This document shows, piece by piece, positions 48,301 to 64,000 of a stretch of DNA of 64,000 bases. The stretch is taken from assembly GCA_015228935.1 (NCBI GenBank), contig JADGCO010000001.1, positions 148,103-212,102 on the forward strand. The letters are read 5' to 3'. A program made the position numbers and the translations under genes. Within the stretch, counting starts at the first letter, position 1. Each line of letters begins with the position of its first letter. Origin of the DNA: Magnetococcales bacterium. GTDB lineage: Bacteria; Pseudomonadota; Magnetococcia; Magnetococcales; DC0425bin3. The notes under the pieces were generated by a model, which saw nothing but the letters and a program-made list of their open reading frames with translations, was not told the origin of the DNA and made no database searches.

Positions 48301-48306
48301 GTCGAT

Positions 48307-49680
48307 CTATATCCCGGTCATGCGGCGCAAGGCGGCCAGGGGGCGACGCAACAGATAGTGAAACAGGGACACTTCCTGTCCTGTGATCCGGGCCGTGCCA
48401 CGCAAACCAATGCGGGGCGGGGCAATCTCGCCCGCAAAACGGGCCGTGAGTCGATAGGCCAGAAATCCCTCGGGCGCGGAAGTGGGTCGAAAAGCGGATT
48501 CAACCAGGTGGGCCGGCAACGGTTGGTCCGGTTCGCTGTTGCTGAAAAAGTTGACTGCGGCATCGGGTTCCAGACGAATGGCATCCGTGACGGGGAGATG
48601 AATTTCCAGCTCCGTGGCATCCGGGTCGGCAATGACCAGGATGCGTTCTCCCACCGTGACCGGGCGTCCCAGCCAGTCGTTGACATCCTCGAACAGGGCG
48701 ATACCGTCCCGGCTGGCCCGGATGCGGATGCGTTCCAGGAGGTGTTCGACATGGGTCACTTCGGTGCGGCGTTGTTCGACCCGTCCCTGGAGCAGGGCCA
48801 GGCGAATTTTGCTCTCCTGATCGAGGACTGCTTTCTGGGCCTCTTGCCGGTATTCATTCTGGGCGGATTCCAGATCGGTGCGGGCCACATCCAGACGGTT
48901 GCGCAGGTTGGTGTCATCGAGGAGCAGCAGCAGATCACCTTTTTTGACCGTGCGGTTGGGACGCACCAGGAATTGATCGATCACCCCGTCCTGGGGAGAG
49001 CGGACCACAACCGGATCAATCGGAATCACCTCGGCAGGGGCCAGAACCGACATGTCAATCGGGAGAGAGAGTGAACCCGCCAGGACGGCCACCAGGAGCA
49101 GAAGAGGCAGACGGCGGATATCGGGCAGGGGACCGAATTGCAGACGGCGACGGGGTTGCAGTGCCCGCCAGGCGTGGGCATAACTTTCGGCCAGGATGGC
49201 AAGCAGCTCCTGGTCAGTCTGATTCCAGGCCGCTTCCCGGGCCAGCAGCATGCCGCCGGGACGGGCACCAGATGGCAGATTCAGGGGCAGCCACAACAAT
49301 TCGGCAGGCAACCATTCCGCCCAGGCGGATTGGTCGGTCTCCGGGAGGCTTTCCGGGGCAATGACGCGCACCTCCGCAGCATGGGACGACCGGTCCAAAG
49401 TGCCACACAATTGCCGCATCCAGGCCACGAACGGGACTTGTGGATCGATACGGAACAGACCGGAAATGGCCACCACCTCCCCTTGACCGGGGGCGTTTCT
49501 TTGCCACAGGATGGCCTGCCGGTAGGGGGTGAGCAGGTGGGTTTCATTGACCAGGACAAAGCCGAGGGCCTCAATATCCGGGGCATCACGGGCCATCTTG
49601 CCCAGTTCCAGGATCAGGCTCAGACTCCGCAGGCGAAATTGCTGGGAGTCGGGTGTGGTTTTGTGGGCGGTATCGGTCAC
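48307..49680 (-). CDS. HlyD-family adaptor protein with an extra N-terminal cytoplasmic domain of about 190 aa
   Basis: 457 aa. After a TM helix (LPLLLLVAVLAGSL) come VVVRSPQDGVIDQFLVRPNRTVKKGDLLLLLDD, a coiled coil and a barrel. The N-terminal domain is not recognised. Confidence 0.7.
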   Translation of the reverse strand: MTDTAHKTTPDSQQFRLRSLSLILELGKMARDAPDIEALGFVLVNETHLLTPYRQAILWQRNAPGQGEVVAISGLFRIDPQVPFVAWMRQLCGTLDRSSHAAEVRVIAPESLPETDQSAWAEWLPAELLWLPLNLPSGARPGGMLLAREAAWNQTDQELLAILAESYAHAWRALQPRRRLQFGPLPDIRRLPLLLLVAVLAGSLSLPIDMSVLAPAEVIPIDPVVVRSPQDGVIDQFLVRPNRTVKKGDLLLLLDDTNLRNRLDVARTDLESAQNEYRQEAQKAVLDQESKIRLALLQGRVEQRRTEVTHVEHLLERIRIRASRDGIALFEDVNDWLGRPVTVGERILVIADPDATELEIHLPVTDAIRLEPDAAVNFFSNSEPDQPLPAHLVESAFRPTSAPEGFLAYRLTARFAGEIAPPRIGLRGTARITGQEVSLFHYLLRRPLAALRRMTGI

Positions 49681-50570
49681 GGCCTCGATTTCCCGGTGGT
49701 TTCAGGGAAGATGACACGACCGTTCATGCCTGAAATCAGTTCAGGAAACTGGCCATCCAGGCGGCCAATCACCTTGATGGATTGACTGACGGCCTCCACC
49801 TGGGGTATGGGGCGCACCACCCGGGCCGGATAATTTCGACCGGTTTCATCGATATGGACCGTCAACGGCGTCCCGGGAAGCAGGCGGGAGAGCCAGCGGG
49901 AGGGCACGATCATGGCCAGTTCCAGATCGGCATTGTTCAGGATTTCCAGCAGATGCTGTCCCTCCGTCATATATTGGAATGGCTGGGCCTGTAACGCAAT
50001 GACCTGTCCGGGAAAGGGAGCGCGCACAAGACAGCGGTCCACCATGATCTTCTGGGTGGTGACTTCAGCCGTGTTGCGGGCCAGTTCGGCCTGGTCCAGT
50101 TCAAGTTCCAACGGGGAGAGGGAACCCAGCTCCATCAGGCGCGTGTGTACTTCCACCCGTTTTTGGGCGGCATGGACCTCCGCCAGGGCTTTTTGCAGAC
50201 GGGTATGAAACAGGGTGCAATCAAATTCCACCAGCAGTCTACCCCGGGGAAAGGCCTCCCCTTCAGTCACGTGGATGCGCTGGATTTTGGCAGTGATCTC
50301 GGCACCGAGTACCGTGCGTTGCCGGGAGGTCAATTGTGCCCGAATCTCTTCGGTGCCCCGGTCAATTCCGTCGGAACCGGTCTCCACAGGGACCGGAATT
50401 TTTTCCCTGCTGCTGGTGACCGAAGGTGCAGACGGTGCCGACCAGACCGGAACAACCGGGGGCAGCAGCAGACAACACACCAGCCAGCCAAGACGCAGAC
50501 CACCCCGGACAGCCATGGTCTGGCCGGCGGGAGAGAGGAGATTTTTCCTGATGGATCGGGACATCATCAT
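49677..50570 (-). CDS. HlyD/membrane-fusion-family periplasmic adaptor
   Basis: 297 aa. An N-terminal anchor is followed by GAEITAKIQRIHVTEGEAFPRGRLLVEFD, a short coiled coil and VRAPFPGQVIAL. It overlaps the next gene by 4 nt. Confidence 0.75.
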   Translation of the reverse strand: MMMSRSIRKNLLSPAGQTMAVRGGLRLGWLVCCLLLPPVVPVWSAPSAPSVTSSREKIPVPVETGSDGIDRGTEEIRAQLTSRQRTVLGAEITAKIQRIHVTEGEAFPRGRLLVEFDCTLFHTRLQKALAEVHAAQKRVEVHTRLMELGSLSPLELELDQAELARNTAEVTTQKIMVDRCLVRAPFPGQVIALQAQPFQYMTEGQHLLEILNNADLELAMIVPSRWLSRLLPGTPLTVHIDETGRNYPARVVRPIPQVEAVSQSIKVIGRLDGQFPELISGMNGRVIFPETTGKSRP

Positions 50571-50577
50571 GGGCGTT

Positions 50578-52326
50578 TCAAGGTGGGTTGACCCCTTCTT
50601 GGACAGGCAGGGGCCTTGACGGATTGTTCAGGGTAGCGGATTGGTTCGCTGGAGGAAAGGTGGGCGATGGGATATCCAGAATGAATGTCTCCGGTTCATG
50701 CCGTGGGGTTGCCTGGATGCGTTCCATGGACTTTTGCAGGAGTTTGCGGACCCGTTCGATCAGATCAGCCCGGGAATTGGGCACTGTCGTGGGTTCAGGA
50801 CCGGGAACCTGTATCAGGGCTTTTTCCCATTCAGTCAGATTTTTTTCAATGTTTTCACTCAGGGATTTCAGATCATTGTCGGTGGTGTTCATGGCAACCG
50901 GATCGGCTCCCACGGCCACCTGAAGTTGACCCAGGGCATTTTCCAGTTGAGCAAGAGCTTGATTTTGTTGCAGGCGGGTCAAAACGGCTTTGACCTTGTT
51001 GCGGATTTGTTCCAGGCGGTTTTCGGCGGCGTTGTTTTGTTGCGTGGTCACATGGTGCAGGATTGCCTGGTCGATGGTGCTGAGATCCATGGTCCGGCGA
51101 TACTGTTGCAAGGCGGTGAGATATTGCCGCCAGGCAATATGGGTTTGACTCAAAATGGCCATGTGCAGGGCCAGGCGACGGGTTTCGGTCACCGCTTCCT
51201 GTGATCTGGCCCATTGCAACCGCCAGGGGGCCGTGGCCAGATTGATCAGGTTCCAGGAGATGCGCAAGCCCGCTTCCGCCCAGCTCTGGTTGACCAGAAA
51301 GGTATTGCTTTCATAATTGCCGGTCAGGCTCATTTCCAGGCCGGGAAAGAGGCGGGCGATGGCTTTGCGGGTCTCCTCGCTGCTGATACGGGCCTGATAA
51401 TTTTCTTCACGCAACTCCGGGCGGTTGCGCAGAGCCAGTCGTTCCAGGGCGGCCAGGGGCATGTCAGAGGGGAACGCGGTCAGGGGGGGTTCAGTGGCGG
51501 CCAGTTTGAAGGTTTTTCCCGGTGGCACGTTCATCAAGGGAGACAACTCGATGCGGGCCATGGCCATGTCGTCACGCAATTTTTCCAACTGCACCACAAT
51601 TTCCAGAATCGAACGTCGATAGCGCAATATCTCCAGAGGGGGACGCAGACGTTCCTGGGCGATTTGCTCCAGGGCAACACGGGCCTCTTCGGCCTGTTGC
51701 AAGGCATCGGTAATCTCTTGGGCCAGGTTTTGTGCCCCCCAGGCACGCCAGAAGGCGTAACGAATTTCCCGGGTCAGGTTTTGAATCACCTTGCGCCGCC
51801 GCTCTTCGGTGATCAGCAACCGGTCCGCCTCCTGGCGTGCCCGGAAATAGCTGACGCCAAAATCCAGGACATTCCAGGTCATGGAGAGGTCGATCTGTTC
51901 ATGATCCCGATTCTGCGAGGTCGAGGACTCAAGGGAAATGCTGCCACTCTGGACCGATTGGCTGCTGGAAGCCGCCGCATTGGAGCGGCTCGTATAGCCC
52001 GCCGAAGCCAGCAACCCGGGCAGCAGCTCCGCCCGGGTCAGGTCCAGTTGATTTCTGGAAAGCATCTCTTCCATCAACTTCAGACGGTGATCAAGATTGA
52101 AGCTGATGGCCCGGGCCATGGCATCATAGATGGTCACGGTTTCCGGGAGGGGGGGCTGGTTTTCGAACATTTTAAGCTCATCGGCCTCGACGAGCCGGGC
52201 CTGCTCTGCCTCGGTCAAGGCCTGCGGTTTGACAATACAGCCAGCCGGCAGGATCAGAAGGAGTATCCAGCCCAACAGATACAGCGACAGGGAAGTGGCA
52301 GATTTGCAGGCAGACATCTTCGCCAA
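50578..52326 (-). CDS. TolC-family outer-membrane efflux lipoprotein with a Pro-rich C-terminal extension
   Basis: 582 aa with lipobox LILPAGC and two OEP-type helical repeats. The track start is TTG 52326; ATG 52317 is the alternative. Confidence 0.75.
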   Translation of the reverse strand: MAKMSACKSATSLSLYLLGWILLLILPAGCIVKPQALTEAEQARLVEADELKMFENQPPLPETVTIYDAMARAISFNLDHRLKLMEEMLSRNQLDLTRAELLPGLLASAGYTSRSNAAASSSQSVQSGSISLESSTSQNRDHEQIDLSMTWNVLDFGVSYFRARQEADRLLITEERRRKVIQNLTREIRYAFWRAWGAQNLAQEITDALQQAEEARVALEQIAQERLRPPLEILRYRRSILEIVVQLEKLRDDMAMARIELSPLMNVPPGKTFKLAATEPPLTAFPSDMPLAALERLALRNRPELREENYQARISSEETRKAIARLFPGLEMSLTGNYESNTFLVNQSWAEAGLRISWNLINLATAPWRLQWARSQEAVTETRRLALHMAILSQTHIAWRQYLTALQQYRRTMDLSTIDQAILHHVTTQQNNAAENRLEQIRNKVKAVLTRLQQNQALAQLENALGQLQVAVGADPVAMNTTDNDLKSLSENIEKNLTEWEKALIQVPGPEPTTVPNSRADLIERVRKLLQKSMERIQATPRHEPETFILDIPSPTFPPANQSATLNNPSRPLPVQEGVNPP

Positions 52327-52501: not shown

Positions 52502-53284
52502 TCAATTCGAATGGAGTCTGCCTGGAACAATCTCGTGAAACATTCCCATGTCTCCACTCTCAAACAATTGATCATAGAGAAATTTATCTTCGATCCGATC
52601 CAGTTCCATCCAGAGACCGGTGACCGGAACGGCAGGAATTTTCCAGCCAGTCCGGATGAGGCGGATCAGCAGACCGGTCATGTCCAGGCGTTGGCGGTCG
52701 GGGGCGGGGAGGGTGTGGAGAACGTGTTCCACGCGCTCCCAACCGCCGGGTTGAAAGCGCAGCAGGCCCATGAACTGGCCCTGAATCTGTTCGATGTCAT
52801 CGGTGCGACCGCCGATGTCGAGGAGGTAGCCATCCGGGTCGGTACAGAAGGTTTCGGCATCCAGGAGCGGGTTGGCAAAGCGGGCTTCCCAGATTTTTCG
52901 CCAACAGGTATGCGACGTGATGGCCAGTTCGGCACGGGTGGCATTCAGCTTGTGCAGCATGGCGGCTTCCATGGTGATGTCGGCATAACAGACGATACAG
53001 GGAAATCGGGTCAGCCAGTCACGGGCACAGGTCAGGGAGAGGACCATGTTGGTGGTGGCCCAGGCGGGATTGTGGAAGGTGTCGGGGACCCTGGTTGCCA
53101 ACTGTTCTGCCTGATAACCGGTGACGATGGCCACCCGGGTGATGCCGGCATCCCGGAAGGCCGCCAATTGCCAGTCAAGGAGGGTACGGCCTCCCAACGA
53201 GAGGAGACATTTGGGTTGCGTGTTGGTCAAGGTTCCCATACGACTGCCGCGACCGGCGGCCAGAATGATGCCTCTGGTGTCCAT
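52502..53284 (-). CDS. Nucleotidyltransferase (LicC/MobA-like fold); candidate Cj1416-like cytidylyltransferase
   Basis: 260 aa. The N-terminal GIILAAGRGSRMGTLTNTQPKCLL is the NTP-transferase signature. The specific role is inferred only from the neighbouring genes. Confidence 0.7.
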   Translation of the reverse strand: MDTRGIILAAGRGSRMGTLTNTQPKCLLSLGGRTLLDWQLAAFRDAGITRVAIVTGYQAEQLATRVPDTFHNPAWATTNMVLSLTCARDWLTRFPCIVCYADITMEAAMLHKLNATRAELAITSHTCWRKIWEARFANPLLDAETFCTDPDGYLLDIGGRTDDIEQIQGQFMGLLRFQPGGWERVEHVLHTLPAPDRQRLDMTGLLIRLIRTGWKIPAVPVTGLWMELDRIEDKFLYDQLFESGDMGMFHEIVPGRLHSN

Positions 53285-53310
53285 GGTGTCAAAAACTTCC
53301 TGGGATCATG

Positions 53311-53532
53311 TTATTCACCCGGCTTGATGATGTTCGATTCCGGAATTATCCGTCCTTGTTCTTCAGCCACATCCAACCAGGAGAGCATGGCTTCCCTGCC
53401 ATTGGCTAAGGCATCTTCGACCGTTTCTCCATCAGACATGCAACCGGGCAGGTCGGGAAATTCGATCAGATAACCACCACCTTCTTCCTTTTTCAGATGA
53501 CGGATCATGAAGGGAAAGTTTGGTTCGTTCAT
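53311..53532 (-). CDS. hicB: HicB-family antitoxin
   Basis: 73 aa. FMIRHLKKEEGGGYLIEFPDLPGCMSDGETVEDALANGREAMLSWL is the HicB/UPF0150 RNase-H-like fold pattern. It overlaps hicA by 4 nt. Confidence 0.8.
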   Translation of the reverse strand: MNEPNFPFMIRHLKKEEGGGYLIEFPDLPGCMSDGETVEDALANGREAMLSWLDVAEEQGRIIPESNIIKPGE

Positions 53533-53771
53533 TTTGCATTCTCGATTGTGTCGATCATTTCGACTAATTTGAAAATATAGACTGGTTTCAACGGTTTGTG
53601 AGCTGGAATACTCAAAATTTCTGTGACACTGGGATGAGAAAAAATCACATGGCTTCCACGAGGATTTCGCACGATCATTCCATATCGCTCGGCAAGAGTC
53701 TTGATTTCCTCAATTCGCCAGTCACGGGCACTGTTCCGCATTTTCTGGAGAACTTTTTGAGCTTTCGTCAT
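53529..53771 (-). CDS. hicA: HicA-family mRNA interferase toxin
   Basis: 80 aa. WRIEEIKTLAERYGMIVRNPRGSHVIFSHPSVTEILSIPAHKPLKPVYIFKLVEMI is the HicA/YcfA pattern, including the GSH motif. Confidence 0.75.
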   Translation of the reverse strand: MTKAQKVLQKMRNSARDWRIEEIKTLAERYGMIVRNPRGSHVIFSHPSVTEILSIPAHKPLKPVYIFKLVEMIDTIENAK

Positions 53772-53825
53772 GGGAATATCATAACACCGAAAATGCGAAT
53801 CATGTCAAAGCAAGATGTGTCGTCA

Positions 53826-54557
53826 TTACATACAACGGCTTTGGTCACGATCTGATTTATTAAAATTTTCCATGTGACGCTGGTCAACCGGGTCATGTTT
53901 CAATTGCAGATGGCTGCCAAACACACTCGCGAATAAAACAACATCCTGGTGCCGGAAAGGGGTGATGCGTTCCGGATGCCACATGATGCCGCAAAGAGGT
54001 TCTGCCGGGTGCCGGATGGCCTTGATGACGCCATCCACGGCCCAGGCCCAGACATGCAGAGTCTCTTTGCCGGTCTGGAGGGGAAAAACGGAATTTTTCT
54101 GGTCATGGGCCAGATCGACAATCTGGAATCCAAACTCATGGAAACTGTTGACGGTTTCCCAGTTGCCCCGGATGCGGATATTTTGTTGGGGCTGGACGTG
54201 TCCCTGCACCCGCTGCAAGGTCAGACCCAGATGTGACATCAGGACCTGCATGCCGCGACAGACACCCAGGACCGGGATGTGTCGCTCCCTGGCCCATGGC
54301 AGGAGGGCAAACTCCAGGGCATCCCGTTCCGGGGCATCGCCCTGCAAGGCTGCCAGGGTATTGCCACCGGTCAACAGAATGCCTTGGGGTCGGCAGGCTT
54401 GCAACAGGTCGAGGGCAGTGGCCGCATGGTTCGGCAACAACAGCGGCAAAATACCGCAAAGCCGCAAAAACGCCACCCAGCGCTGATCCAGGGCATCGCG
54501 CCGTTCCCCCGTTGCCGGGTGCAGATCGACTCTCTGGGTGACGGCGATGCAGGTCAT
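53826..54557 (-). CDS. Class-I glutamine amidotransferase-like hydrolase (peptidase C26 / PuuD-like); candidate Cj1417-like
   Basis: Track ORF trimmed to ATG 54557 (ATGA overlap with the upstream stop). The nucleophile motif is PVLGVCRGMQVL, and the His region is MWHPE. Confidence 0.75.
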   Translation of the reverse strand: MTCIAVTQRVDLHPATGERRDALDQRWVAFLRLCGILPLLLPNHAATALDLLQACRPQGILLTGGNTLAALQGDAPERDALEFALLPWARERHIPVLGVCRGMQVLMSHLGLTLQRVQGHVQPQQNIRIRGNWETVNSFHEFGFQIVDLAHDQKNSVFPLQTGKETLHVWAWAVDGVIKAIRHPAEPLCGIMWHPERITPFRHQDVVLFASVFGSHLQLKHDPVDQRHMENFNKSDRDQSRCM

Positions 54558-56917
54558 CCCATGATCCGTACCTGCCGGTTGGCGCAATCCATGGCCAGGA
54601 CCCGGGCTTGTGACCACTCCCGGAACAGGATTTCCCCGGCCCCGATCACGGCAGGAATGCCCAGTTCTCCGGCCCGGATGGCCATGTGCGAGTTGACGCC
54701 GCCAAATTCGGTGATGAAACCGCCAATGCCATGGGAAAAAATCCAGTCATAGCCGGGGTCGGCGTGCGAAATCATGATCACATTGCCCGGCAACCGGGCA
54801 TGCTCGGCATCCTCCCGGACCACCTGACCCACGACATGTTCCAGGGTGATGTAATTGGGGTGGTCCACGGGCAGTTGGAATTGATAGACATCATCCGGAC
54901 GGACGATGAGGGGCGGCAGGGAGAGACTCTGGGTGAGGACATGTCGCCGCCGTCCCTCCGCAATGGTGTGGGCCAGGACGGTTTCCGGATCCTCGCTCCC
55001 GGCATAGAGGCGATGAATCAGGCCGATATCGGCAAAGGAGGCATCCTCGCGGCTGAAGCCATGGTCGCGGGCATATGTTTCGAACAACTGCAAGGCAGTA
55101 CTCAGACTCCGGGTAAAGATGAATTTGGCCTGTTCCCGTCCTTCGATGGCACCCTGGATAAACCGGAACAGGCTGAGAACGTCATGATCGATACCATGTT
55201 TTTTCAGCAGGCTCAGGATCCCCTCCATTTTTCCCAACGTCAGGGAGAAGGGGTCCCGGTTTTCCCGGGGGGGAGGAATTTTACTGGAGGTTTCACCCTT
55301 CCTGGTGGACCAGTCGAAGTAAAGATCCGGCTCTTCGTCATAACGCGGGGAGAGAATGTTGTAGGTACCGGGACGCAGATGTCCATAACGGGCCAGAAAA
55401 GCTTCCCGGCTCAGGGTATGAAAATCCTCTCCCAGGCGGGAACTGACGGTTTGCAGGGAGGTCATGAAGGCGGCATGATCCCGGGCTGACAGGACGCCGA
55501 CCTGCACCAGGGATTTCAGCATTTGCACGGCAATGAAACCGGCCCGGGCCAGACCGGCAAAGGGGAGGGTTCCATACCGTTTGCAATCCTCAAGAATCCA
55601 GTAGATCTTGGCGAGAGTGTCCTGGTTGCTGGAGGCAATTTTTTGCCGACGCTCTTCGAGTTCCTGCACGCGCCGGATGTCCCCTTTCCAGAGGCCGGCT
55701 TCTTCGCCGATGATCCGGTTGGTCAATTTTCTGAGGCTCTGTTCCAGTGCCCGGGTATCCTGTCGGGAAAAACCATGCTCGTGCAGTACCGTGAGTCGTT
55801 CCGGCAGATCGAAGGTATAACAGGAGTAGATGACCTCGAACTCCACCTTGTCATGTTGATGGGGATTTTCCTCCAGACGGTCGATGTAGTGGTTGACCAG
55901 ACGTTCGGCCAGAGTTTCCGGTACGTCTGCCGGCACGAACGAGTTGAAGCTGACCCGGACATCGATGTAGGGCAGACCGGCAAAATCGATCAGCAGGGGA
56001 AAACTGCGCAGATTTCTGTAGCCGTAGTTGTCCCGTTGGTAGGCCCAGATGTGATCGGTCACCAGTTCCTTGTAGAGGGACAAGGCGAGGGGGCGTGGCC
56101 GCACCCCGATGATTTCGGCGGGATTCCAGTCCGGCATGATGCCAAAGATGGAACGTCGCCCGTAAAGATAGGGATGGGGTTGTGTGTGGGAGGTGATTTT
56201 TCGATGGATCTGTTGCAGGACCTGCCGGCTGGTTGCGGCATCACCGGTAAATCCCCCGGCGCGATGCAGGGGTCGCACCTGGAGCAGATACAACTCCCCA
56301 TTGCCAGCCACGGCAAATTCCACATCCAGGGTATCGCGGGCAAACAGGGTTTCCAGTTCTTGCAGGAGGCGGAGCAAACCTTGCCAGGGTTCTGACGGCA
56401 GTTCGGGGGCATTGCGGGCCAGATACAACGTTTGCAAGTGTTGGCCGGCCCCGGAGGTCACCCCATCCGTCTTTCCCGTATGGGCATCGTAGTTGATGAC
56501 GTTATAATGGCCCCCTGTGTTGGGATCTCGCGTAAAGGCGACGCCGCTCACATGGACAGATGATAAAAATGGTTGGACAAAAATCTGGTCATCCTGGGAA
56601 CCGGCGGCAAAAGAGGCCAGCACCTGGTCAATGGCCAGACTCAAGTCATCCTGGCTCACCACATTGCCCACCGAGGTGAAGTGACCGGCCAGGGAACCGC
56701 TCTCCGTATCCTCTGCCCGGGCAGAACTGCGCACGATCAAGGGTCCCTGCGACCAGGCATGCCCGAGGATTTCCTGCCTGACCCTGCCCGGTGTTTCCCG
56801 CCACTGCCGGGCGGTAAACCGGTATTGCGGAAGAATCCGGGCACTCTTGAGAACGGGTTCCAGCAACGCCAGTGTTTCTGCCTTGGTACCGAATTGCATG
56901 GCCATGGGCAACCTCAC
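54554..56917 (-). CDS. PEP-utilising-enzyme family kinase (PPDK_N ATP-grasp plus swivelling phosphohistidine domain); candidate L-glutamine kinase (Cj1418-like)
   Basis: 787 aa. The N-terminal GTKAETLALLEP...IVRSSARAEDTESGSLAGHFTSVGNV is PPDK_N-like. The C-terminal ITEFGGVNSHMAIRAGELGIPAVIGAG is the mobile His domain. Confidence 0.8.
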   Translation of the reverse strand: MRLPMAMQFGTKAETLALLEPVLKSARILPQYRFTARQWRETPGRVRQEILGHAWSQGPLIVRSSARAEDTESGSLAGHFTSVGNVVSQDDLSLAIDQVLASFAAGSQDDQIFVQPFLSSVHVSGVAFTRDPNTGGHYNVINYDAHTGKTDGVTSGAGQHLQTLYLARNAPELPSEPWQGLLRLLQELETLFARDTLDVEFAVAGNGELYLLQVRPLHRAGGFTGDAATSRQVLQQIHRKITSHTQPHPYLYGRRSIFGIMPDWNPAEIIGVRPRPLALSLYKELVTDHIWAYQRDNYGYRNLRSFPLLIDFAGLPYIDVRVSFNSFVPADVPETLAERLVNHYIDRLEENPHQHDKVEFEVIYSCYTFDLPERLTVLHEHGFSRQDTRALEQSLRKLTNRIIGEEAGLWKGDIRRVQELEERRQKIASSNQDTLAKIYWILEDCKRYGTLPFAGLARAGFIAVQMLKSLVQVGVLSARDHAAFMTSLQTVSSRLGEDFHTLSREAFLARYGHLRPGTYNILSPRYDEEPDLYFDWSTRKGETSSKIPPPRENRDPFSLTLGKMEGILSLLKKHGIDHDVLSLFRFIQGAIEGREQAKFIFTRSLSTALQLFETYARDHGFSREDASFADIGLIHRLYAGSEDPETVLAHTIAEGRRRHVLTQSLSLPPLIVRPDDVYQFQLPVDHPNYITLEHVVGQVVREDAEHARLPGNVIMISHADPGYDWIFSHGIGGFITEFGGVNSHMAIRAGELGIPAVIGAGEILFREWSQARVLAMDCANRQVRIMG

Positions 56918-56953
56918 GAAAACCGTTATGCCAAACCGGAATGGACCAACCGG

Positions 56954-57706
56954 TTACAGTTTGGCCTGGGCCATCCAGATGCGTGTGGTGTAGGGAATGG
57001 GAATGGCTTGCTGACCGGTTTCCGTCACCAGACGTTCAATGGCCTGGATGATGGCCGGCAGGCGGGCACCGGCCTGCCGTTGCAACGTGGCATGCGAGCG
57101 CCAGGCCTCGACCAGGTCCGCCGGGGTTTGGGCATGCACGATGGTTCCCTCCATGCGTATCACCTCGCCGAACAGGCCCGACTCTCGAATCACTTCCGTC
57201 TGATCCTGGCGGCGGGTGCCATAGTCGTAATCCGGAATGGTATCGCGAATGATTTGTTCAATTTTTTGTTGAAAGGGATCATCGAGATCACGATGATTCC
57301 ACAGAGCGGCAAACCAGCCCCGTTTTTTGAGAATGCGGCAGCTTTCCCGCAAGGCAGCCGGGCGATCCGTGACATTGAACGACGAACCAAAAGTGACCAT
57401 GTCGAAACGTCCAGACTCTTGTCCGGTCTGTTCGCCGCTTCCTTCTGACCATTGCACGCGGGGCAGGTGCGCGGTTCGTTCCCGACCCAGGGCGCGCATG
57501 GCGTCGTTGGGTTCCACGGCCTGCACCGTCAAGCCCCGTCCGGCAAGCTGCAAGGTCAGGTGGGCCACGCCCGCCCCCACGTCACAGACCACCGCCGGCG
57601 GACGACACCCCGCCAGGGCCAGCATTTCATCGATGGCGGATGCCGCATAATCCGGACGTTTCAAGTAGGCCTGGGCCAGGTTGGAATAATCCCATTCGGT
57701 CTGCAT
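56954..57706 (-). CDS. Class I SAM-dependent methyltransferase
   Basis: 250 aa with motif I VCDVGAGVAHLTLQLAGRG. Confidence 0.85.
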   Translation of the reverse strand: MQTEWDYSNLAQAYLKRPDYAASAIDEMLALAGCRPPAVVCDVGAGVAHLTLQLAGRGLTVQAVEPNDAMRALGRERTAHLPRVQWSEGSGEQTGQESGRFDMVTFGSSFNVTDRPAALRESCRILKKRGWFAALWNHRDLDDPFQQKIEQIIRDTIPDYDYGTRRQDQTEVIRESGLFGEVIRMEGTIVHAQTPADLVEAWRSHATLQRQAGARLPAIIQAIERLVTETGQQAIPIPYTTRIWMAQAKL

Positions 57707-58033
57707 CGCGTTGCCTCACCCTGTTTGCCAAAGTATTGTTCTCCTTTGCCGGCCACAGGCAATTATTTCCCGTGGCTGCCAGGCAGGATTTTCCGGACAA
57801 CAGCCTGGGAACCAGCCCGGGTTGTGTTTCTGTTGCCTTGAAATAGGTGCCCTGCCGAGGAAAAAGCATAAATCAGGCCAAGCGTGGGCTGTCTGGCAAG
57901 CCTGATGCCAGGCGATGAGATGAATATTAGCGGTGTGCTGAAGAAGAATGCTTTTCACATTGATGACAACCACTGCCTGGCTATACACTCTTCGATAGAA
58001 GCTTCACATCCTGTTTGGTATGGAACGCGCACC

Positions 58034-59296
58034 ATGGCTATGATCGAAGGACTTCGCATTCGTAACTATCGTGCCCTCAAAGACATCACGATGGGCAGAA
58101 TTGGCACCGATCCTGACTACAAGGATGTTGATGAACTGACACCTCTGGTAGTGGTTATTGGCAGGAATGGTGCTGGCAAGAGTACCCTTTTCGATGCTTT
58201 TGGCTTTCTGGCTGACTGCATGGAGATGGATGTGGAAACTGCCTGCAACGTAGGCTGGCGTGGCGGACTGGACAAACTTCTTTCAGTTGACGTGCAGGAT
58301 GATCCAAACGCCACCCTGGATTTCGTCGTCTATTACCGGGAAGCACAAAACGAAAGACCCATTACCTACGAGATTTCCATTGGCCGCAATCCAAAAACCG
58401 GCGAGGCCTGCGTGGCATCGGAAAAGTTGCGGCAACGCCGCCTTGGAGAGAGGTATGGTCGCCCCTATCCCTTCCTTGATCTGACCTTCGGCCGGGGATA
58501 CGCATGGGCAGGCCAGAAAAGCGTGGAAGGAGACGAGGCAGGGGACAAAATGGCTGTCACCCTCAATCCCGGTCGGCTGGCCATCACGACCCTGGCAGAA
58601 CATATCAAAGATCATCCCCGCGTCACCCGATTCCGCAATTTTATCAAGGGTTGGTACTTGAGCTACTTTACTCCTGACGCTGCCCGTCAGACGCCCAAGT
58701 TCAAACCCGAGACGCACCTTGATCTGCGCGGAGAAAATCTCGGCAATGTGGTCCACCATATGTATACCAGGGACAAAAAGCGCTTCGAAAAAGTACTGGA
58801 TCGTATCGGGCGGAAAATTCCGGGCATTGGACGTATTACGCCCTATGTGGATTCGGTGACCAAAAACGTTTATCTGCAATTTTTTGACAAGGGGTTCACC
58901 ACGTCCTTTTTTGCTCCCCAAATGTCTGATGGTACCCTGAAACTCTTCGCATACATGCTGCTCCTGGAAGATCCTGAACCGCCTCCCTTCATCTGTATCG
59001 AAGAGCCGGAAAACGGCCTGCATCACAAACTGCTGGAAGATCTGGCTCGCGAGTTCCGTGCCCACGCGGAAAGGATGCCAAAGCCGCCACAGCTTTTCAT
59101 CACCACTCACCAGCCCTACTTCGTCGATGCACTGACACCTGCAGAGACGTGGATCCTGGAAAAACAGGACAATGGTTTCGCTACTCTTTCTCATGCCAGC
59201 GACAACCCAGTCATCGTGAACATGGTCAATGAGGGTATTCCCCTGGGAAACCTGTGGTACAGCGACTACATGGACGATTGGACGGACGTGAGATGA
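58034..59296 (+). CDS. ABC/SMC-like (AAA_15/21, COG4637-type) ATPase
   Basis: Track ORF trimmed to ATG 58034. Motifs: Walker A VIGRNGAGKSTLFDAFGFL, signature-like MSDGTLKLFAYMLLL, Walker B FICIEEPENGLH and H-loop ITTHQP. Confidence 0.85.
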   Translation: MAMIEGLRIRNYRALKDITMGRIGTDPDYKDVDELTPLVVVIGRNGAGKSTLFDAFGFLADCMEMDVETACNVGWRGGLDKLLSVDVQDDPNATLDFVVYYREAQNERPITYEISIGRNPKTGEACVASEKLRQRRLGERYGRPYPFLDLTFGRGYAWAGQKSVEGDEAGDKMAVTLNPGRLAITTLAEHIKDHPRVTRFRNFIKGWYLSYFTPDAARQTPKFKPETHLDLRGENLGNVVHHMYTRDKKRFEKVLDRIGRKIPGIGRITPYVDSVTKNVYLQFFDKGFTTSFFAPQMSDGTLKLFAYMLLLEDPEPPPFICIEEPENGLHHKLLEDLAREFRAHAERMPKPPQLFITTHQPYFVDALTPAETWILEKQDNGFATLSHASDNPVIVNMVNEGIPLGNLWYSDYMDDWTDVR

Positions 59297-59961
59297 AATT
59301 TCATATCCTTGTCGAGGGAATCTCCGACAAAACTGCCCTATGGTATCTGCTGCCTGGAATTCTTGGTCCTCGGGAACATCCACACATGTGGTATATCCAC
59401 AAACATAAAGGCATCGGCTCACTTTCCACGGCTCCCCATACCGTGGTCAAATCTGCGGAAACTTTGCTGGGCCAACTGCCCACCAAACTGAAGGCCTACG
59501 GACAAGCTTTAAAAGAAGATGAAATCGTTGTGGTTCTGCTTGACCTGGATGATAAAGATCAGGCCTTGTTTTGTACTCAGATGGCATGCCTTGTGGCTGG
59601 AATTAATCCCATGCCCAACCTTCTCGTCTGTTTTGCCATTGAAGAGCTGGAAGCCTGGTATCTGGGAGACATGACGGCTCTGTTTACAGCTTTTCCAGAG
59701 GCCAGAAAACAAAGTGTTTTGGTAGGTGGTTACGTCCAGGACAGTATATGCGGTACATGGGAATTGTTGGTGCGTGTCACCCTTGGCAAGGATCCAGCGT
59801 CACTGTCCAAGAGAGGTCGATGTGAATCGGGAGAGTTCAAGACCCAACTTGCCAACAAGATTTCGCCACACATGGATGTTGATAAAAACCTTTCTCCAAG
59901 TTTCCAAACTTTCAGAGATTTGTTGCGGAATACAGCAAACCTTCCACTCAAAGTTTTCTGA
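59293..59961 (+). CDS. DUF4276-like (Toprim-like) protein
   Basis: Track ORF trimmed to ATG 59293, which overlaps the ATPase stop (ATGA). MKFHILVEGISDKTAL carries an early invariant-looking Glu. VVVLLDLDD is a mid-protein acidic cluster. Length is 222 aa. Confidence 0.65.
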   Translation: MKFHILVEGISDKTALWYLLPGILGPREHPHMWYIHKHKGIGSLSTAPHTVVKSAETLLGQLPTKLKAYGQALKEDEIVVVLLDLDDKDQALFCTQMACLVAGINPMPNLLVCFAIEELEAWYLGDMTALFTAFPEARKQSVLVGGYVQDSICGTWELLVRVTLGKDPASLSKRGRCESGEFKTQLANKISPHMDVDKNLSPSFQTFRDLLRNTANLPLKVF

Positions 59962-63500: not shown

Positions 63501-64000
63501 ACGGGGATTATGTCCATGTGGACGGCGATCCGAATGACCTCCCCTTCCGGGGCTGGAACGATCCCAAACGCAAGGAAGAGTACAAGGTGGCACGCCTGCT
63601 GTGCCGCGCCCGCTACTATCCTGGCACTCCGACCGGGATTACCCGCATGTGGTTCAACGGCTACATGGCCACACCCGGTTCGGTGAAAGCCCATGAAACC
63701 CGTCTGGATGGCATCGCCAAAAATTCCGAGACCAACTATCAATCCCTGTTCCGTTACGGTGGTCACCAGAGCCTGACCCGTTCCTGGCTCAAACCCACCC
63801 ACCAGACCGCAACCCTGATCACCCGGAAATCCTGGACCAACGAGGTGACCAAGGGGTTCAATGTCGATGTCCACTGCGTGACCAACGCTCCCCGTGAATC
63901 CATCGCCAAATTCACCAAAGCGGAAAATGGCGGTATCGGAGGCGTCGGCAAGTGGCGTCCGGTGGAACTGGGACTGCGTCCCGGAAATGAGAGCGCGTCC
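60560..64000 (+). CDS. Tat-exported molybdopterin oxidoreductase catalytic subunit, type II DMSO-reductase family (NxrA/NarG/EbdA/SerA-like); 3' end cut by the window
   Basis: Absent from the track because there is no stop in the window. ATG 60560 has GGGAGG 9-14 nt upstream. MSSETNQLSRRRFLQAVGVAGLGTLAVPG is a twin-arginine signal. CCPNDTHNC is the N-terminal Fe-S region. The frame stays open for 1147 codons to 64000. All three large antisense track ORFs here are shadows. Confidence 0.85.
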   Translation, partial: MSSETNQLSRRRFLQAVGVAGLGTLAVPGEVMAGFRYLSPVQVENPLAAYPNRDWERIYRDIFRHDKTFVFMCCPNDTHNCLLNAFVKNDVIVRIEPTYGYGKAQDLYGNQATHRWDPRCCQKGLVLARRFYGDRRVNGSFLRKGFKEWVDQGFPRDPATGAAPPSLMRRGWDSWVKVTAQEAAQYHAKSLYNISKTYTGDQGKKYLLAQGYDPDMVEAVGGAGTRVTKFRGGMAMQGALRIFGAFRMGNSMALLDAHLRKVPEEEAKGSGSWDSYSFHTDLPPGHPMVTGDQTNDFELFDSENAGLIIAWGMNWISTKMPDGHWLSEARLKGAKTVAVTVEYSSTANKCDDVLVIRPGTDPAFALGLAQVIIAENLYDADFVKRYTDLPTLVRMDTLDRLQAKDVFAGHKNSALQNWTQVIPKGEKPGPTPAQRGVQIPEALAGEFGDFVMWDAKKNAAVAVTHDQVGSHFEKLGIDPALQGSFDVTLADGRKVVCRTVFDLTKQYLDHNMKPAMVRQITWAPENGIQTLARDIAKNRGKTLFATGMGPNQFWNNDNKDRAILLVAALTANLGRHGGNVGSYAGVYKNTLFSGVPRWTLENPFHPQLDPDGAVKPQLYLRPESMHYWANGERLMKAGNKKITVGAHVPTPTKAIWQVNSNSSLGNQKGMYDVVFNTLPKAEIVVYNEWWWTASCEFSDIVYGVDSWMELKYPDFTGSNTNPFFQAYPRTPVKRSYATVSDNETYLYVAQEMAKLTGDERFAQMWKFIADGRPEVYLQRMIDGSTSLKGYRFTELETLAKQGIPALLNTRTYPRINSYEQVQESRPWHTKTGRLEYYRPELEFIEAGENLIVHREPSDATFHDPCAIVAAAHPAITPKRPPDWNIPEGDRTHTSRQMRNTTYTVEQLLATKHPLKDKGWDHVFHTPKYRHGAHTTPIDTDFMSALFGPFGDMYRRDKRMPSVGEMYVDINPIDAKAMGIEDGDYVHVDGDPNDLPFRGWNDPKRKEEYKVARLLCRARYYPGTPTGITRMWFNGYMATPGSVKAHETRLDGIAKNSETNYQSLFRYGGHQSLTRSWLKPTHQTATLITRKSWTNEVTKGFNVDVHCVTNAPRESIAKFTKAENGGIGGVGKWRPVELGLRPGNESAS

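What the first reader, a model, noticed from the sequence alone, without database searches (positions are those of the whole stretch)
52502..57706. Gene set matching the Campylobacter phosphoramidate (MeOPN) pathway outside its usual host
The minus-strand run contains four biosynthetic genes:
- a SAM methyltransferase (56954-57706);
- a 787-aa PPDK_N plus phosphohistidine-domain kinase (54554-56917);
- a class-I amidotransferase-like C26 hydrolase (53826-54557, ATGA-coupled to the kinase);
- a LicC-like nucleotidyltransferase (52502-53284).

In C. jejuni NCTC 11168 the O-methyl phosphoramidate capsule modification is made by enzymes of the same families:
- Cj1418, L-glutamine kinase (PEP-utilising-enzyme family);
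- Cj1416, CTP:phosphoglutamine cytidylyltransferase;
- Cj1417, gamma-glutamyl-CDP-amidate hydrolase (GATase-like);
- Cj1415, cytidine diphosphoramidate kinase;
- Cj1419 and Cj1420, methyltransferases.

Three of the four core families plus a methyltransferase are present and co-oriented here. I do not see a Cj1415-like (APS-kinase-fold) gene or a transferase in the window. If the assignment holds, this organism may decorate a surface polymer with a phosphoramidate, a very rare P-N modification.
Basis: partly seen in the sequence, partly recalled or inferred. Interest (0 to 1): 0.6.

Follow-up and report, generated by a model that had tools for sequence, protein, structure and literature searches.

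The report
Phosphoramidate-donor gene cassette in Magnetococcus
Four intact, co-oriented genes in this Magnetococcus genome are true relatives of the Campylobacter enzymes that build the phosphorus-nitrogen (phosphoramidate) donor for capsule decoration, but the same cassette occurs in very many environmental bacteria and archaea, and the last two steps of the pathway are not encoded in this window.

Summary
The four minus-strand ORFs exist as described and belong to the stated families.

A direct comparison with a C. jejuni MeOPN locus, recovered from a public genome, gave one full-length match per gene, in the same order:
- methyltransferase to Cj1419-type: 38% identity;
- kinase to Cj1418, L-glutamine kinase: 41% over 789 residues, with the phospho-His conserved;
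- hydrolase to Cj1417: 24%, with the Cys-His-Glu motifs conserved;
- nucleotidyltransferase to Cj1416: 33%.

The kinase and C. jejuni Cj1418 both pass the same curated NCBIfam equivalog. Of 72 other genomes with readable downstream sequence, 65 have both the hydrolase and the nucleotidyltransferase next to the kinase. The window proteins keep 196 of 197 family-conserved positions.

Three caveats apply:
- No Cj1415-type kinase and no candidate transferase lies anywhere in the 64 kb.
- A HicAB toxin-antitoxin pair sits inside the cassette.
- The closest relative (81% identity) keeps only the methyltransferase and the kinase.

The cassette is not rare. There are at least 1,589 50%-identity clusters, including SAR11, Prochlorococcus, Helicobacter, Vibrio, Azospirillum and archaea.

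Verdict: a new member of a known kind. It probably makes cytidine diphosphoramidate. The acceptor is unknown. Interest is moderate to low.

The parts
56954..57706 (-). Class-I SAM methyltransferase, Cj1419-type (250 aa). It is the first gene of the cassette.
   Evidence: - Pfam Methyltransf_11 and Methyltransf_25.
- 38% identity over the full length to the C. jejuni Cj1419-type protein (E 3e-61), and 31% to the Cj1420-type protein.
- Keeps 34 of 34 family-conserved columns.
- dN/dS is 0.12 against the 81%-identity relative.
54554..56917 (-). L-glutamine-kinase-type enzyme, Cj1418 family. It is 783 aa from ATG 56905, or 787 aa from GTG 56917. The predicted catalytic residue is His740, in the motif GGVNSHMAIRA.
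   Evidence: - NCBIfam NF004508: 955.6 bits against a cutoff of 501, full length. C. jejuni Cj1418 hits the same model at 1173 bits.
- 40.7% identity over 789 aligned residues to the C. jejuni protein. His740 aligns with His737.
- Keeps 111 of 112 conserved columns.
- dN/dS is 0.13.
- In the NJ tree it sits inside the cassette-bearing family.
53826..54557 (-). Class-I amidotransferase-like hydrolase, Cj1417 type (gamma-glutamyl-CDP-amidate hydrolase-like, 243 aa). Its start overlaps the kinase stop as ATGA.
   Evidence: - Pfam Peptidase_C26 and GATase.
- The best NCBIfam model is NF045546, at 89 bits. The next family scores 39 bits, but the curated cutoff is 250.
- 24% identity to C. jejuni Cj1417, E 2e-16, and 46% to the Magnetococcales L002 homologue.
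- The GVCRGMQ Cys motif and the MWHPE His/Glu motif are conserved. Keeps 20 of 20 conserved columns.
- Relative to homologues it has a 14-residue internal insert and a 26-residue C-terminal extension.
53529..53771 (-). HicA toxin (80 aa). It is an insertion inside the cassette and not part of the pathway.
   Evidence: - Pfam HicA_toxin, E 7e-7.
- Annotated in the same way on the deposited contig.
- Absent from this position in the other loci surveyed.
53311..53532 (-). HicB antitoxin (73 aa), overlapping the HicA stop. It is part of the same insertion.
   Evidence: - Called on the deposited contig with Pfam HicB_lk_antitox and HicB-like_2.
- Window coordinates were obtained from the 99.1%-identity alignment between the window and L003.
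52502..53284 (-). Nucleotidyltransferase, Cj1416 type (CTP:phosphoglutamine cytidylyltransferase-like, 260 aa).
   Evidence: - Pfam NTP_transf_3.
- 32.5% identity over 249 residues to C. jejuni Cj1416, E 8e-47.
- Keeps 31 of 31 conserved columns, including the LAAGxGSR loop.
- LicC, IspD and GlgC structures match only the N-terminal 60 residues or so.

Best explanation
The four genes are a Magnetococcus copy of the nucleoside-diphosphoramidate ('MeOPN core') cassette first characterised in C. jejuni as Cj1419-Cj1418-Cj1417-Cj1416.

**Proposed mechanism (inferred from the characterised C. jejuni enzymes)**
1. The kinase uses ATP to phosphorylate its swivelling His740. [quoted passage not shown] This makes the P-N bond.
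2. The nucleotidyltransferase condenses L-glutamine phosphate with CTP to give CDP-L-glutamine.
3. The amidotransferase-like hydrolase uses its Cys-His-Glu triad to release glutamate and leave cytidine diphosphoramidate.
4. The Cj1419-type methyltransferase probably supplies the O-methyl group at some later stage. This step is unproven even in Campylobacter.

**What is not encoded here**
- The 3'-phosphorylation of the donor (the Cj1415 step) and the transfer to an acceptor are not encoded in this 64 kb window.
- They would have to be encoded elsewhere in the genome, or the pathway stops at the nucleotide donor.
- The acceptor (glycan, lipid, protein or small molecule) is unknown.

**What is shown and what is inferred**
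- Shown: homology, gene order, conserved catalytic motifs, co-conservation across genomes, and purifying selection.
- Inferred: the substrates, the product and the biological target.
For: **Direct comparison with C. jejuni**
- Each window protein has one full-length match in the C. jejuni GP013 locus L016, in the same gene order.
- Identities are 38% (methyltransferase), 40.7% (kinase), 24% (hydrolase) and 32.5% (nucleotidyltransferase).
- The L016 proteins belong to clusters that NCBI names gamma-glutamyl-CDP-amidate hydrolase, CTP:phosphoglutamine cytidylyltransferase and cytidine diphosphoramidate kinase.

**Family membership**
- The kinase and Cj1418 both pass the same equivalog model, NF004508.
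- The phospho-His motif aligns: His740 with His737.
- The hydrolase's best curated family is the Cj1417 model, 50 bits ahead of the next family.

**Co-conservation**
- Of 72 kinase loci with at least 1.6 kb of downstream sequence, 63 have the hydrolase immediately downstream on the same strand, and 65 have both the hydrolase and the nucleotidyltransferase.
- Independent gene fusions link the kinase to an APS-kinase domain and to a nucleotidyltransferase domain.
- The same order, methyltransferase-kinase-hydrolase-nucleotidyltransferase, occurs on Azospirillum lipoferum 4B plasmid p6, with an APS-kinase-domain gene upstream of the methyltransferase.

**Integrity of the window genes**
- The window proteins keep 111/112, 20/20, 31/31 and 34/34 family-conserved columns.
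- dN/dS is 0.12-0.13 for the methyltransferase and kinase against the 81% relative.
- The kinase and hydrolase are translationally coupled through an ATGA overlap.

**Pathway chemistry:** taken from PMC11800397 and PMC6429109.
Against: - No Cj1415-type kinase lies anywhere in the window. In the kinase's own clade the APS-kinase gene usually lies next to or fused with the cassette.
- No DUF2972, sulfotransferase-like or CDP-glycerol-transferase-like candidate transferase is in the window.
- No glycan biosynthesis genes were found in the window ORFs scanned.
- A HicAB module interrupts the operon, and the hydrolase carries an atypical insert and C-terminal tail.
- The closest relative has only the methyltransferase and kinase at this locus.
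- The hydrolase scores 89 bits against a curated cutoff of 250.
- No biochemical data exist for any non-Campylobacter member, and the role of the methyltransferase is unassigned even in C. jejuni.
Confidence: 0.75

Rival explanations
1. Orphaned or eroding cassette. The genes are real homologues, but the pathway no longer ends in any modification in this organism. On this view the 3'-kinase and transferase have been lost, a toxin-antitoxin module has landed in the operon, and the lineage is shedding the genes.
For: - No Cj1415-type gene or transferase lies in 64 kb.
- HicAB sits inside the cassette.
- The hydrolase has an unusual insert and tail.
- The 81%-identity relative retains only the methyltransferase and kinase, with no detectable remnant of the other two genes.
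- The flanks look like a variable island: a HEC-01 candidate defence pair, a Fic protein and the toxin-antitoxin module.
Against: - All four ORFs are intact and keep 196 of 197 family-conserved positions.
- dN/dS of 0.12-0.13 shows purifying selection on the methyltransferase and kinase since the split from the relative.
- About half of the other loci also lack an APS-kinase gene within the few kb that could be read, so a distant location is common.
- The rest of the genome could not be searched.
Confidence: 0.15
2. Same enzyme families but different chemistry. On this view the kinase phosphorylates a substrate other than L-glutamine, or the nucleotidyl intermediate is used for something other than a phosphoramidate decoration. 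Examples would be a CDP-activated amino acid or a small-molecule product.
For: - Identity to the characterised enzymes is only 24-41%.
- The hydrolase is below the curated Cj1417 cutoff.
- The kinase superfamily contains members in quite different contexts. The Cupriavidus plasmid homologue stands alone next to a TPP enzyme and an aminotransferase, and has a variant motif.
- Candidate transferases beside the cassette differ between lineages: DUF2972, sulfotransferase-like, or CDP-glycerol glycerophosphotransferase.
Against: - The window kinase passes the same equivalog model as Cj1418.
- It sits within the clade whose members carry the kinase-hydrolase-nucleotidyltransferase triad.
- A glutamine-amidotransferase-type hydrolase coupled to the kinase is exactly what the glutamine route requires.
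- All family-invariant residues are retained.
Confidence: 0.09
3. The large gene is an ordinary PEP synthase, pyruvate phosphate dikinase or rifamycin phosphotransferase, as public annotation says ('phosphoenolpyruvate synthase', 'PEP-utilizing enzyme'). On this view the neighbouring genes are unrelated.
For: - NCBI names for close homologues are 'phosphoenolpyruvate synthase' or 'PEP-utilizing enzyme'.
- Pfam finds only PPDK_N and the PEP-utilizers domain.
Against: - PpsA, PPDK and Rph NCBIfam models score 55 bits or less against cutoffs of 456-1700, and they cover only the ATP-grasp fragment or the 60-residue mobile domain.
- PDB PpsA and Rph-like structures match only residues 705-762.
- The full-length match is to Cj1418.
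- Linkage to the hydrolase and nucleotidyltransferase is conserved.
Confidence: 0.01

Closest known systems
C. jejuni MeOPN biosynthesis genes Cj1415-Cj1420 (L-glutamine kinase Cj1418, CTP:phosphoglutamine cytidylyltransferase Cj1416, gamma-glutamyl-CDP-amidate hydrolase Cj1417, cytidine diphosphoramidate kinase Cj1415, methyltransferases Cj1419/Cj1420)
   Same: - Four of the six genes have full-length homologues here, in the same order and orientation (methyltransferase, kinase, hydrolase, nucleotidyltransferase).
- The phospho-His, the Cys-His-Glu triad and the nucleotide-binding loop are conserved.
- The kinase belongs to the same NCBIfam equivalog.
   Different: - There is no Cj1415-type kinase, no second methyltransferase and no DUF2972 (Cj1421/Cj1422-type) transferase in the window.
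- The cassette is not in a capsule locus.
- HicAB is inserted between the hydrolase and the nucleotidyltransferase.
- The hydrolase falls below the curated Cj1417 cutoff.
Uncharacterised cassette on Azospirillum lipoferum 4B plasmid AZO_p6, and similar loci in Haematospirillum, Sericytochromatia, Clostridium homopropionicum, Aeromonas and Prochlorococcus
   Same: - This is the closest clade for the kinase (51-55% identity).
- The order methyltransferase-kinase-hydrolase-nucleotidyltransferase is identical.
   Different: - Those loci usually add an APS-kinase-domain gene directly upstream, or fused to the kinase.
- They often have sulfotransferase-fold genes beside the cassette.
- In Azospirillum the cassette lies among polysaccharide genes.
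- The window has none of these features.
MeOPN-like four-gene cluster reported in Borg extrachromosomal elements of Methanoperedens (bioRxiv 10.1101/2024.11.05.622173)
   Same: It is also a predicted kinase, cytidylyltransferase and hydrolase set found outside Campylobacter and assigned by similarity only.
   Different: - The Borg assignment rests on structure prediction.
- Its cluster includes a PEP-mutase fusion and lies in a glycoconjugate region.
- No sequence comparison with the Borg genes was made here.
PAPS pathway (APS kinase plus sulfotransferases), as a mechanistic analogue
   Same: - In C. jejuni the final donor is a 3'-phosphorylated nucleotide made by an APS-kinase-fold enzyme.
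- Sulfotransferase-fold genes recur next to the cassette in several lineages.
   Different: - The link is by analogy only.
- A profile comparison between DUF2972 proteins and the sulfotransferase-like neighbours gave no support (probability 1.6%).
- Neither component is present in the window.

Membership tests
Nucleoside-diphosphoramidate (MeOPN core) cassette, C. jejuni Cj1415-Cj1419 type | A Cj1418-type L-glutamine kinase: full-length homology and the same curated equivalog. | tested here: met
   - 40.7% identity over 789 residues.
- NF004508: 955.6 bits for the window protein and 1173 bits for C. jejuni, against a cutoff of 501.
Nucleoside-diphosphoramidate (MeOPN core) cassette, C. jejuni Cj1415-Cj1419 type | A catalytic phosphohistidine in the C-terminal swivel domain. 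That His737 is the catalytic residue of Cj1418 is my recollection of Taylor et al. 2017, a paper not held in the library. | tested here: met
   - The GGVNSH(740)MAIRA motif aligns with GGANSH(737)MAIRA of the 779-aa C. jejuni protein.
- The motif is conserved in at least 90% of the 79 family members aligned.
Nucleoside-diphosphoramidate (MeOPN core) cassette, C. jejuni Cj1415-Cj1419 type | A Cj1417-type amidotransferase-like hydrolase with a Cys-His-Glu triad next to the kinase. | tested here: met
   - ATGA-coupled to the kinase.
- E 2e-16 to Cj1417.
- The CRG and WHPE motifs are kept, and 20 of 20 conserved columns are retained.
Nucleoside-diphosphoramidate (MeOPN core) cassette, C. jejuni Cj1415-Cj1419 type | The hydrolase reaches the curated cutoff of NCBIfam NF045546 (gamma-glutamyl-CDP-amidate hydrolase). 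| tested here: not met
   - 89 bits against a cutoff of 250.
- The Magnetococcales L002 homologue also fails, at 122 bits. C. jejuni scores 331 bits.
- The model is narrow and Campylobacter-centred.
Nucleoside-diphosphoramidate (MeOPN core) cassette, C. jejuni Cj1415-Cj1419 type | A Cj1416-type cytidylyltransferase in the cassette. | tested here: met
   - 32.5% identity over 249 residues, E 8e-47.
- 31 of 31 conserved columns retained.
- Present in 66 of 72 comparable loci.
Nucleoside-diphosphoramidate (MeOPN core) cassette, C. jejuni Cj1415-Cj1419 type | A Cj1415-type (APS-kinase-fold) cytidine diphosphoramidate 3'-kinase. | tested here: not met
   - No hit in the 64 kb by tblastn or by a family HMM.
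- The rest of the genome could not be searched.
Nucleoside-diphosphoramidate (MeOPN core) cassette, C. jejuni Cj1415-Cj1419 type | A phosphoramidate transferase (DUF2972, Cj1421/Cj1422 type) and a glycan locus. | tested here: not met
   - No DUF2972, sulfotransferase-like or TagF-like homologue in the window.
- Pfam scans of the window ORFs tested found no glycan genes.
Nucleoside-diphosphoramidate (MeOPN core) cassette, C. jejuni Cj1415-Cj1419 type | Collinear gene order: methyltransferase, kinase, hydrolase, nucleotidyltransferase. | tested here: met
   The order is the same as in L016 (C. jejuni) and L004 (Azospirillum), apart from the HicAB insertion.
Nucleoside-diphosphoramidate (MeOPN core) cassette, C. 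jejuni Cj1415-Cj1419 type | Enzyme activities (glutamine N-phosphorylation, CDP-glutamine formation, CDP-amidate release) and a P-N product in the cell. | not testable with these tools
   Needs biochemistry and 31P-NMR. The organism is known only as a metagenome-assembled genome.
PEP synthase / pyruvate phosphate dikinase / rifamycin phosphotransferase | A full-length match above the family cutoff, including the PEP/pyruvate or rifamycin-binding domain. | tested here: not met
   - The best of these models scores 55.7 bits against a cutoff of 883. Only the ATP-grasp fragment and the mobile domain match.
- PDB hits cover residues 705-762 only.
PuuD-type gamma-glutamyl-GABA hydrolase (the usual public annotation of the hydrolase) | A match above the curated cutoff of NF008471. 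| tested here: not met
   - 36 bits against a cutoff of 266.
- PuuD structure 6vtv matches residues 37-136 only.
   LicC (1jyk) matches only residues 4-62 at 33 bits. Cj1416 matches over the full length at 146 bits.

The most novel reading that the evidence does not exclude
The glutamine-kinase cassette may be a widespread and largely unrecognised route to P-N (phosphoramidate) modification, present across many bacterial phyla and some archaea, including SAR11, Prochlorococcus and magnetotactic bacteria. In the clade that includes this window, the donor would be handed to sulfotransferase-fold (often TPR-fused) transferases rather than to the Campylobacter DUF2972 enzymes. The targets would then not be limited to capsules. 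In Magnetococcus the missing kinase and transferase would lie elsewhere in the genome.
Probability: 0.3. Interest if true: 0.6.

Novelty: new member of a known kind. Interest (0 to 1): 0.35.

Why it matters
**The gap between the literature and the genomes**
- Phosphoramidate decorations are known chemically from Campylobacter capsules. Phosphoramide substituents have been reported in Shewanella MR-4 and Xanthomonas LPS.
- Two reviews still treat the chemistry as Campylobacter-restricted: one calls the modification Campylobacter-only, the other calls the glutamine kinase C. jejuni-specific.
- The survey prompted by this window shows the core cassette in very many lineages.
- The chemistry could therefore be much more common than the literature implies.

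**Where it can be tested**
- Cultured carriers are available: Azospirillum lipoferum 4B, Clostridium homopropionicum DSM 5847, Aeromonas dhakensis and Vibrio alfacsensis.

**Two side results**
- The methyltransferase was present next to the cassette in 14 of the 31 loci readable on both sides, usually just upstream of the kinase. This is independent support for linking Cj1419-type enzymes to the pathway, a step still unassigned in C. jejuni.
- The NCBIfam model that covers Cj1418 is still titled 'hypothetical protein'.

**This locus itself**
- It is an incomplete, uncultured example, so its individual importance is modest.

Tried and rejected
- **Raushel-lab primary papers.** Four look-ups (PMC6643271, PMC5938747, PMC5629633, PMC5938751) found none held. 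The identity of His737 as the catalytic residue therefore rests on my recollection plus the alignment.
- **Viral contigs.** A scan for the MPDWNPAE motif found nothing.
- **Cj1415-type kinase in the window.** tblastn with four fused APS-kinase domains and an HMM built from 43 sequences gave no hit.
- **Candidate transferases in the window.** tblastn with sulfotransferase-like, DUF1566, DUF2972 and CDP-glycerol-transferase neighbours of other cassettes gave no hit.
- **Are DUF2972 transferases sulfotransferase-like?** hhalign gave a probability of 1.6%, so this is not supported.
- **Is the cassette a defence system?** PADLOC gave no hits for the kinase, hydrolase or nucleotidyltransferase, and only a generic methyltransferase-domain hit. 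Only the neighbouring AAA_21/DUF4276 pair is a defence candidate.
- **Three 'unknown' minus-strand ORFs at 60584-63874.** These were considered as possible transferases and rejected. They are shadow ORFs of a plus-strand molybdopterin oxidoreductase gene.
- **Link to the downstream OEP/HlyD/M50 export genes.** Not seen in the other loci whose annotation was read, so I treat it as coincidental.
- **Searching for the missing kinase with a whole-database protein search.** Not attempted. Only the top 120 hits are listed, and the chance of seeing this MAG's protein among them was judged too low.

Full report
**What is in the window**

Pfam confirms the families:
- 56954-57706: a class-I SAM methyltransferase.
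- 54554-56917: a 783/787-aa protein with a PPDK_N ATP-grasp fragment and a C-terminal PEP-utilizers mobile domain.
- 53826-54557: a Peptidase_C26/GATase protein.
- 52502-53284: an NTP_transf_3 nucleotidyltransferase.

The kinase stop and the hydrolase start overlap as ATGA.

A HicA/HicB toxin-antitoxin pair (53311-53771) lies on the same strand between the hydrolase and the nucleotidyltransferase.

The exact kinase sequence is deposited for a metagenome-assembled genome named Magnetococcus sp. DMHC-1. A second assembly of the same organism matches the last 19.4 kb of the window at 99.1% identity.

**Getting the reference sequences**

No C. jejuni sequence was at hand. I took the motif MPDWNPAE, which is invariant in the 120 best kinase homologues. 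I back-translated it with A/T-rich codons and scanned the genome collection.

This returned 106 loci, among them several C. jejuni strains.

C. jejuni GP013 (L016) carries these genes in one orientation, preceded by a DUF2972 gene:
- two methyltransferases (267 and 253 aa);
- a 779-aa kinase;
- a 200-aa amidotransferase-like protein;
- a 253-aa nucleotidyltransferase;
- a 170-aa APS-kinase-like protein.

An exact-sequence look-up places three of these proteins in clusters that NCBI names gamma-glutamyl-CDP-amidate hydrolase, CTP:phosphoglutamine cytidylyltransferase and cytidine diphosphoramidate kinase. They are therefore the Cj1417, Cj1416 and Cj1415 enzymes. The kinase cluster is named only 'PEP-utilizing enzyme' or 'hypothetical protein'.

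**Direct comparison**

Each window protein finds exactly one partner in the C. jejuni locus, across its full length and in the same order:

| Window protein | C. jejuni partner | Identity | E-value |
|---|---|---|---|
| Methyltransferase | 253-aa Cj1419-type | 38% | 3e-61 |
| Methyltransferase | 267-aa Cj1420-type | 31% | 1e-34 |
| Kinase | Cj1418 | 40.7% over 789 aligned residues | 0 |
| Hydrolase | Cj1417 | 24% | 2e-16 |
| Nucleotidyltransferase | Cj1416 | 32.5% | 8e-47 |

Further points:
- The kinase's GGVNSH(740)MAIRA motif aligns with His737 of the 779-aa C. jejuni protein.
- Both kinases pass the same NCBIfam equivalog, NF004508: 955.6 and 1173 bits against a cutoff of 501.
- PEP synthase, PPDK and rifamycin-phosphotransferase models reach at most 55 bits, on the shared domains only.
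- The hydrolase's best curated family is the Cj1417 model NF045546, at 89 bits. The next family scores 39 bits. The score is below the cutoff of 250, as is that of another Magnetococcales homologue (122 bits), so the model is narrow.
- LicC, IspD and sugar-phosphate nucleotidyltransferases match only the first 60 residues or so of the nucleotidyltransferase.

**Co-conservation**

I searched all retrieved loci with the window and C. jejuni proteins.

| Loci considered | Feature | Count |
|---|---|---|
| 72 pattern-derived loci with at least 1.6 kb readable downstream of the kinase | Hydrolase present | 68 |
| same 72 | Hydrolase immediately downstream on the same strand | 63 |
| same 72 | Nucleotidyltransferase present | 66 |
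| same 72 | Both present | 65 |
| 31 loci readable on both sides | APS-kinase-type gene present | 15 |
| same 31 | Cj1419-type methyltransferase present | 14 |

Gene fusions add independent linkage:
- Many close homologues carry an N-terminal APS-kinase domain.
- The Vibrio alfacsensis plasmid copy carries an N-terminal nucleotidyltransferase domain.

Azospirillum lipoferum 4B plasmid p6 has the order APS-kinase-domain gene, methyltransferase, kinase, hydrolase, cytidylyltransferase, followed by sulfotransferase-domain genes. This cluster lies among polysaccharide genes.

In a neighbour-joining tree the window kinase and its 81% relative sit with Azospirillum, Haematospirillum, Sericytochromatia, another Magnetococcales genome and Clostridium. 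This is within the same family as the Campylobacter/Helicobacter clade and apart from a Cupriavidus-type outgroup that lacks the cassette.

**Integrity**

Against alignments of 34-79 homologues, the window proteins keep the following positions that are at least 90% conserved:
- kinase: 111 of 112;
- hydrolase: 20 of 20;
- nucleotidyltransferase: 31 of 31;
- methyltransferase: 34 of 34.

The retained positions include the hydrolase CRG cysteine motif, its WHPE motif, and the nucleotidyltransferase LAAGxGSR loop.

Against the 81%-identity relative, dN/dS is 0.12 for the methyltransferase and 0.13 for the kinase. The genes are therefore not visibly decaying.

**What is missing or odd here**

- No APS-kinase-fold gene exists anywhere in the 64 kb.
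- No homologue of any candidate transferase seen beside other cassettes is present.
- Pfam scans of the window ORFs tested found no glycan-synthesis genes. They found rpoBC, tuf, c-di-GMP signalling proteins, a giant NACHT protein, a Fic protein, an OEP/HlyD/M50 export set, a HEC-01 candidate defence pair and a molybdopterin oxidoreductase.
- HicAB interrupts the operon.
- The hydrolase has a 14-residue insert and a 26-residue tail not seen in relatives.
- The closest relative (GCA_015229045.1) keeps the methyltransferase and kinase but has no hydrolase or nucleotidyltransferase, and no remnant of them, in 20.6 kb.
- A more distant Magnetococcales genome has kinase-hydrolase-nucleotidyltransferase flanked by TPR-sulfotransferase proteins.

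**Most likely mechanism**

By homology with the characterised C. jejuni enzymes (pathway as summarised in PMC11800397 and PMC6429109):
1. [quoted passage not shown]
2. The nucleotidyltransferase makes CDP-L-glutamine.
3. The hydrolase releases glutamate to leave cytidine diphosphoramidate.

The methyltransferase probably provides the O-methyl group. This is unassigned even in C. jejuni, although its recurrent placement just upstream of the kinase in other lineages supports a link.

The 3'-phosphorylation and the transfer step must be encoded elsewhere or are absent. The acceptor is unknown.

I put 0.75 on the cassette making an NDP-amidate. The probability that a surface glycan is the target in this organism is clearly lower.

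**Rivals**

- An orphaned cassette with no end product (0.15). The missing genes, the toxin-antitoxin insertion and the relative's gene loss fit this reading. The intact conserved residues and purifying selection argue against it.
- Different chemistry from the same enzyme families (0.09).
- Ordinary PEP synthase or rifamycin phosphotransferase. This is refuted.

**How unusual is it**

The kinase family has 1,589 50%-identity clusters at E of 1e-30 or better. At least 7,581 90%-identity proteins reach E of 1e-10 or better, and JGI already labels some of them 'glutamine kinase'.

The A/T-biased scan alone found the cassette in these groups:
- Campylobacter, Helicobacter, Sulfurospirillum and Arcobacter;
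- Pelagibacter (SAR11), Prochlorococcus and Cyanobium;
- Shewanella, Vibrio, Aeromonas and Alteromonas;
- Clostridium, Fusobacterium and Bacteroidota;
- candidate-phyla-radiation (CPR) lineages;
- Methanosarcinales, Thermoplasmatales and Woesearchaeota.

In the open-access literature I could search:
- One review describes the modification as known only from Campylobacter, and another calls the glutamine kinase C. jejuni-specific.
- Only a Borg preprint notes a similar cluster elsewhere.
- Phosphoramide substituents have been reported chemically in Shewanella MR-4 and Xanthomonas campestris LPS.

The Magnetococcus locus is therefore a new member of a known kind, and not an exceptional one. The broader point is worth more than this single incomplete locus: a widespread cassette with under-described chemistry and lineage-specific candidate transferases.

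**Limits**

- The C. jejuni reference is strain GP013, not NCTC 11168. Its identity with the characterised enzymes rests on NCBI cluster names and on protein lengths, gene order and the His737 position matching what I recall for NCTC 11168.
- The locus survey is biased towards A/T-rich genomes and to 8-kb windows. Absences of the APS-kinase and methyltransferase are therefore under-determined.
- The tree is a simple neighbour-joining tree without support values.
- The rest of the Magnetococcus genome could not be searched.

Noticed in passing
window 53311-53771 (-): A HicA/HicB toxin-antitoxin pair is inserted inside the cassette, between the hydrolase and the nucleotidyltransferase. In nearly all other loci these two genes are adjacent. 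The hydrolase's extra 26-residue C-terminal tail may be a scar of the insertion.
   Followed up: partly
window 57884-59961 (+): An AAA_21 ATPase and a DUF4276 protein lie divergent from the cassette. They match the PADLOC candidate defence system HEC-01 (A: 515 bits; B: 228 bits).
   Followed up: partly
window 46192-52326 (-): Directly downstream of the cassette, on the same strand, lies an outer-membrane efflux protein, two HlyD-type adaptors and a 702-aa Peptidase_M50::HlyD fusion. This looks like a peptide or small-molecule export set. The association with the cassette was not seen in the other annotated loci I read.
   Followed up: partly
window 60584-63874 (-) versus about 60560-64000 (+): Three long minus-strand ORFs with no family hits are shadow ORFs. 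The real gene is a plus-strand, TAT-signal molybdopterin oxidoreductase that runs off the window end. It is followed on the deposited contig by Fer4_11, EB_dh and Nitrate_red_del genes.
   Followed up: yes
window 19184-23629 (-): A 1481-aa protein combines ParA/CbiA, Metallophos, NACHT and FGE-sulfatase domains. This is an unusual STAND-type architecture.
   Followed up: no
L001 (Magnetococcales GCA_015229045.1) 7484-10607: The closest relative (81% kinase identity) keeps only the methyltransferase-kinase pair, under purifying selection (dN/dS about 0.12). There is no hydrolase or nucleotidyltransferase within 20 kb. What a methyltransferase plus kinase pair would do on its own is unexplained.
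   Followed up: partly
L002, L004, L035, L040, L071, L085, L093, L107 (flanks of the cassette): Sulfotransferase-fold genes (Sulfotransfer_3/_1, often TPR-fused) recur next to the cassette in unrelated lineages. DUF2972 (Cj1421/Cj1422-type) genes appear only in Campylobacter and Helicobacter loci. The Vibrio alfacsensis plasmid has a CDP-glycerol glycerophosphotransferase-family gene instead. This suggests lineage-specific phosphoramidate transferases. A profile comparison of DUF2972 with the sulfotransferase-like proteins gave no support for homology.
   Followed up: partly
P0035, P0046, P0056, P0058, P0071, P0085, P0116; L005 8332-11340: The kinase is repeatedly fused at its N-terminus to an APS-kinase domain (many environmental homologues). 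In Vibrio alfacsensis pVa1 it is fused to a nucleotidyltransferase-like domain. These are Rosetta-stone links between pathway steps.
   Followed up: partly
NCBIfam NF004508 / C. jejuni cluster of L016 2911-5250: The curated model that covers the experimentally characterised L-glutamine kinase Cj1418 is still titled 'hypothetical protein'. NCBI therefore names family members 'PEP-utilizing enzyme' or 'phosphoenolpyruvate synthase', while Cj1415, Cj1416 and Cj1417 carry their enzyme names.
   Followed up: yes
window 31983-32501 (+) and 44992-46155 (+): A PBECR2 (Barnase/EndoU/RelE-like) nuclease-domain protein and a Fic/DOC protein with an HTH domain. Both are further signs that this part of the chromosome collects mobile or conflict-related genes.
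   Followed up: no
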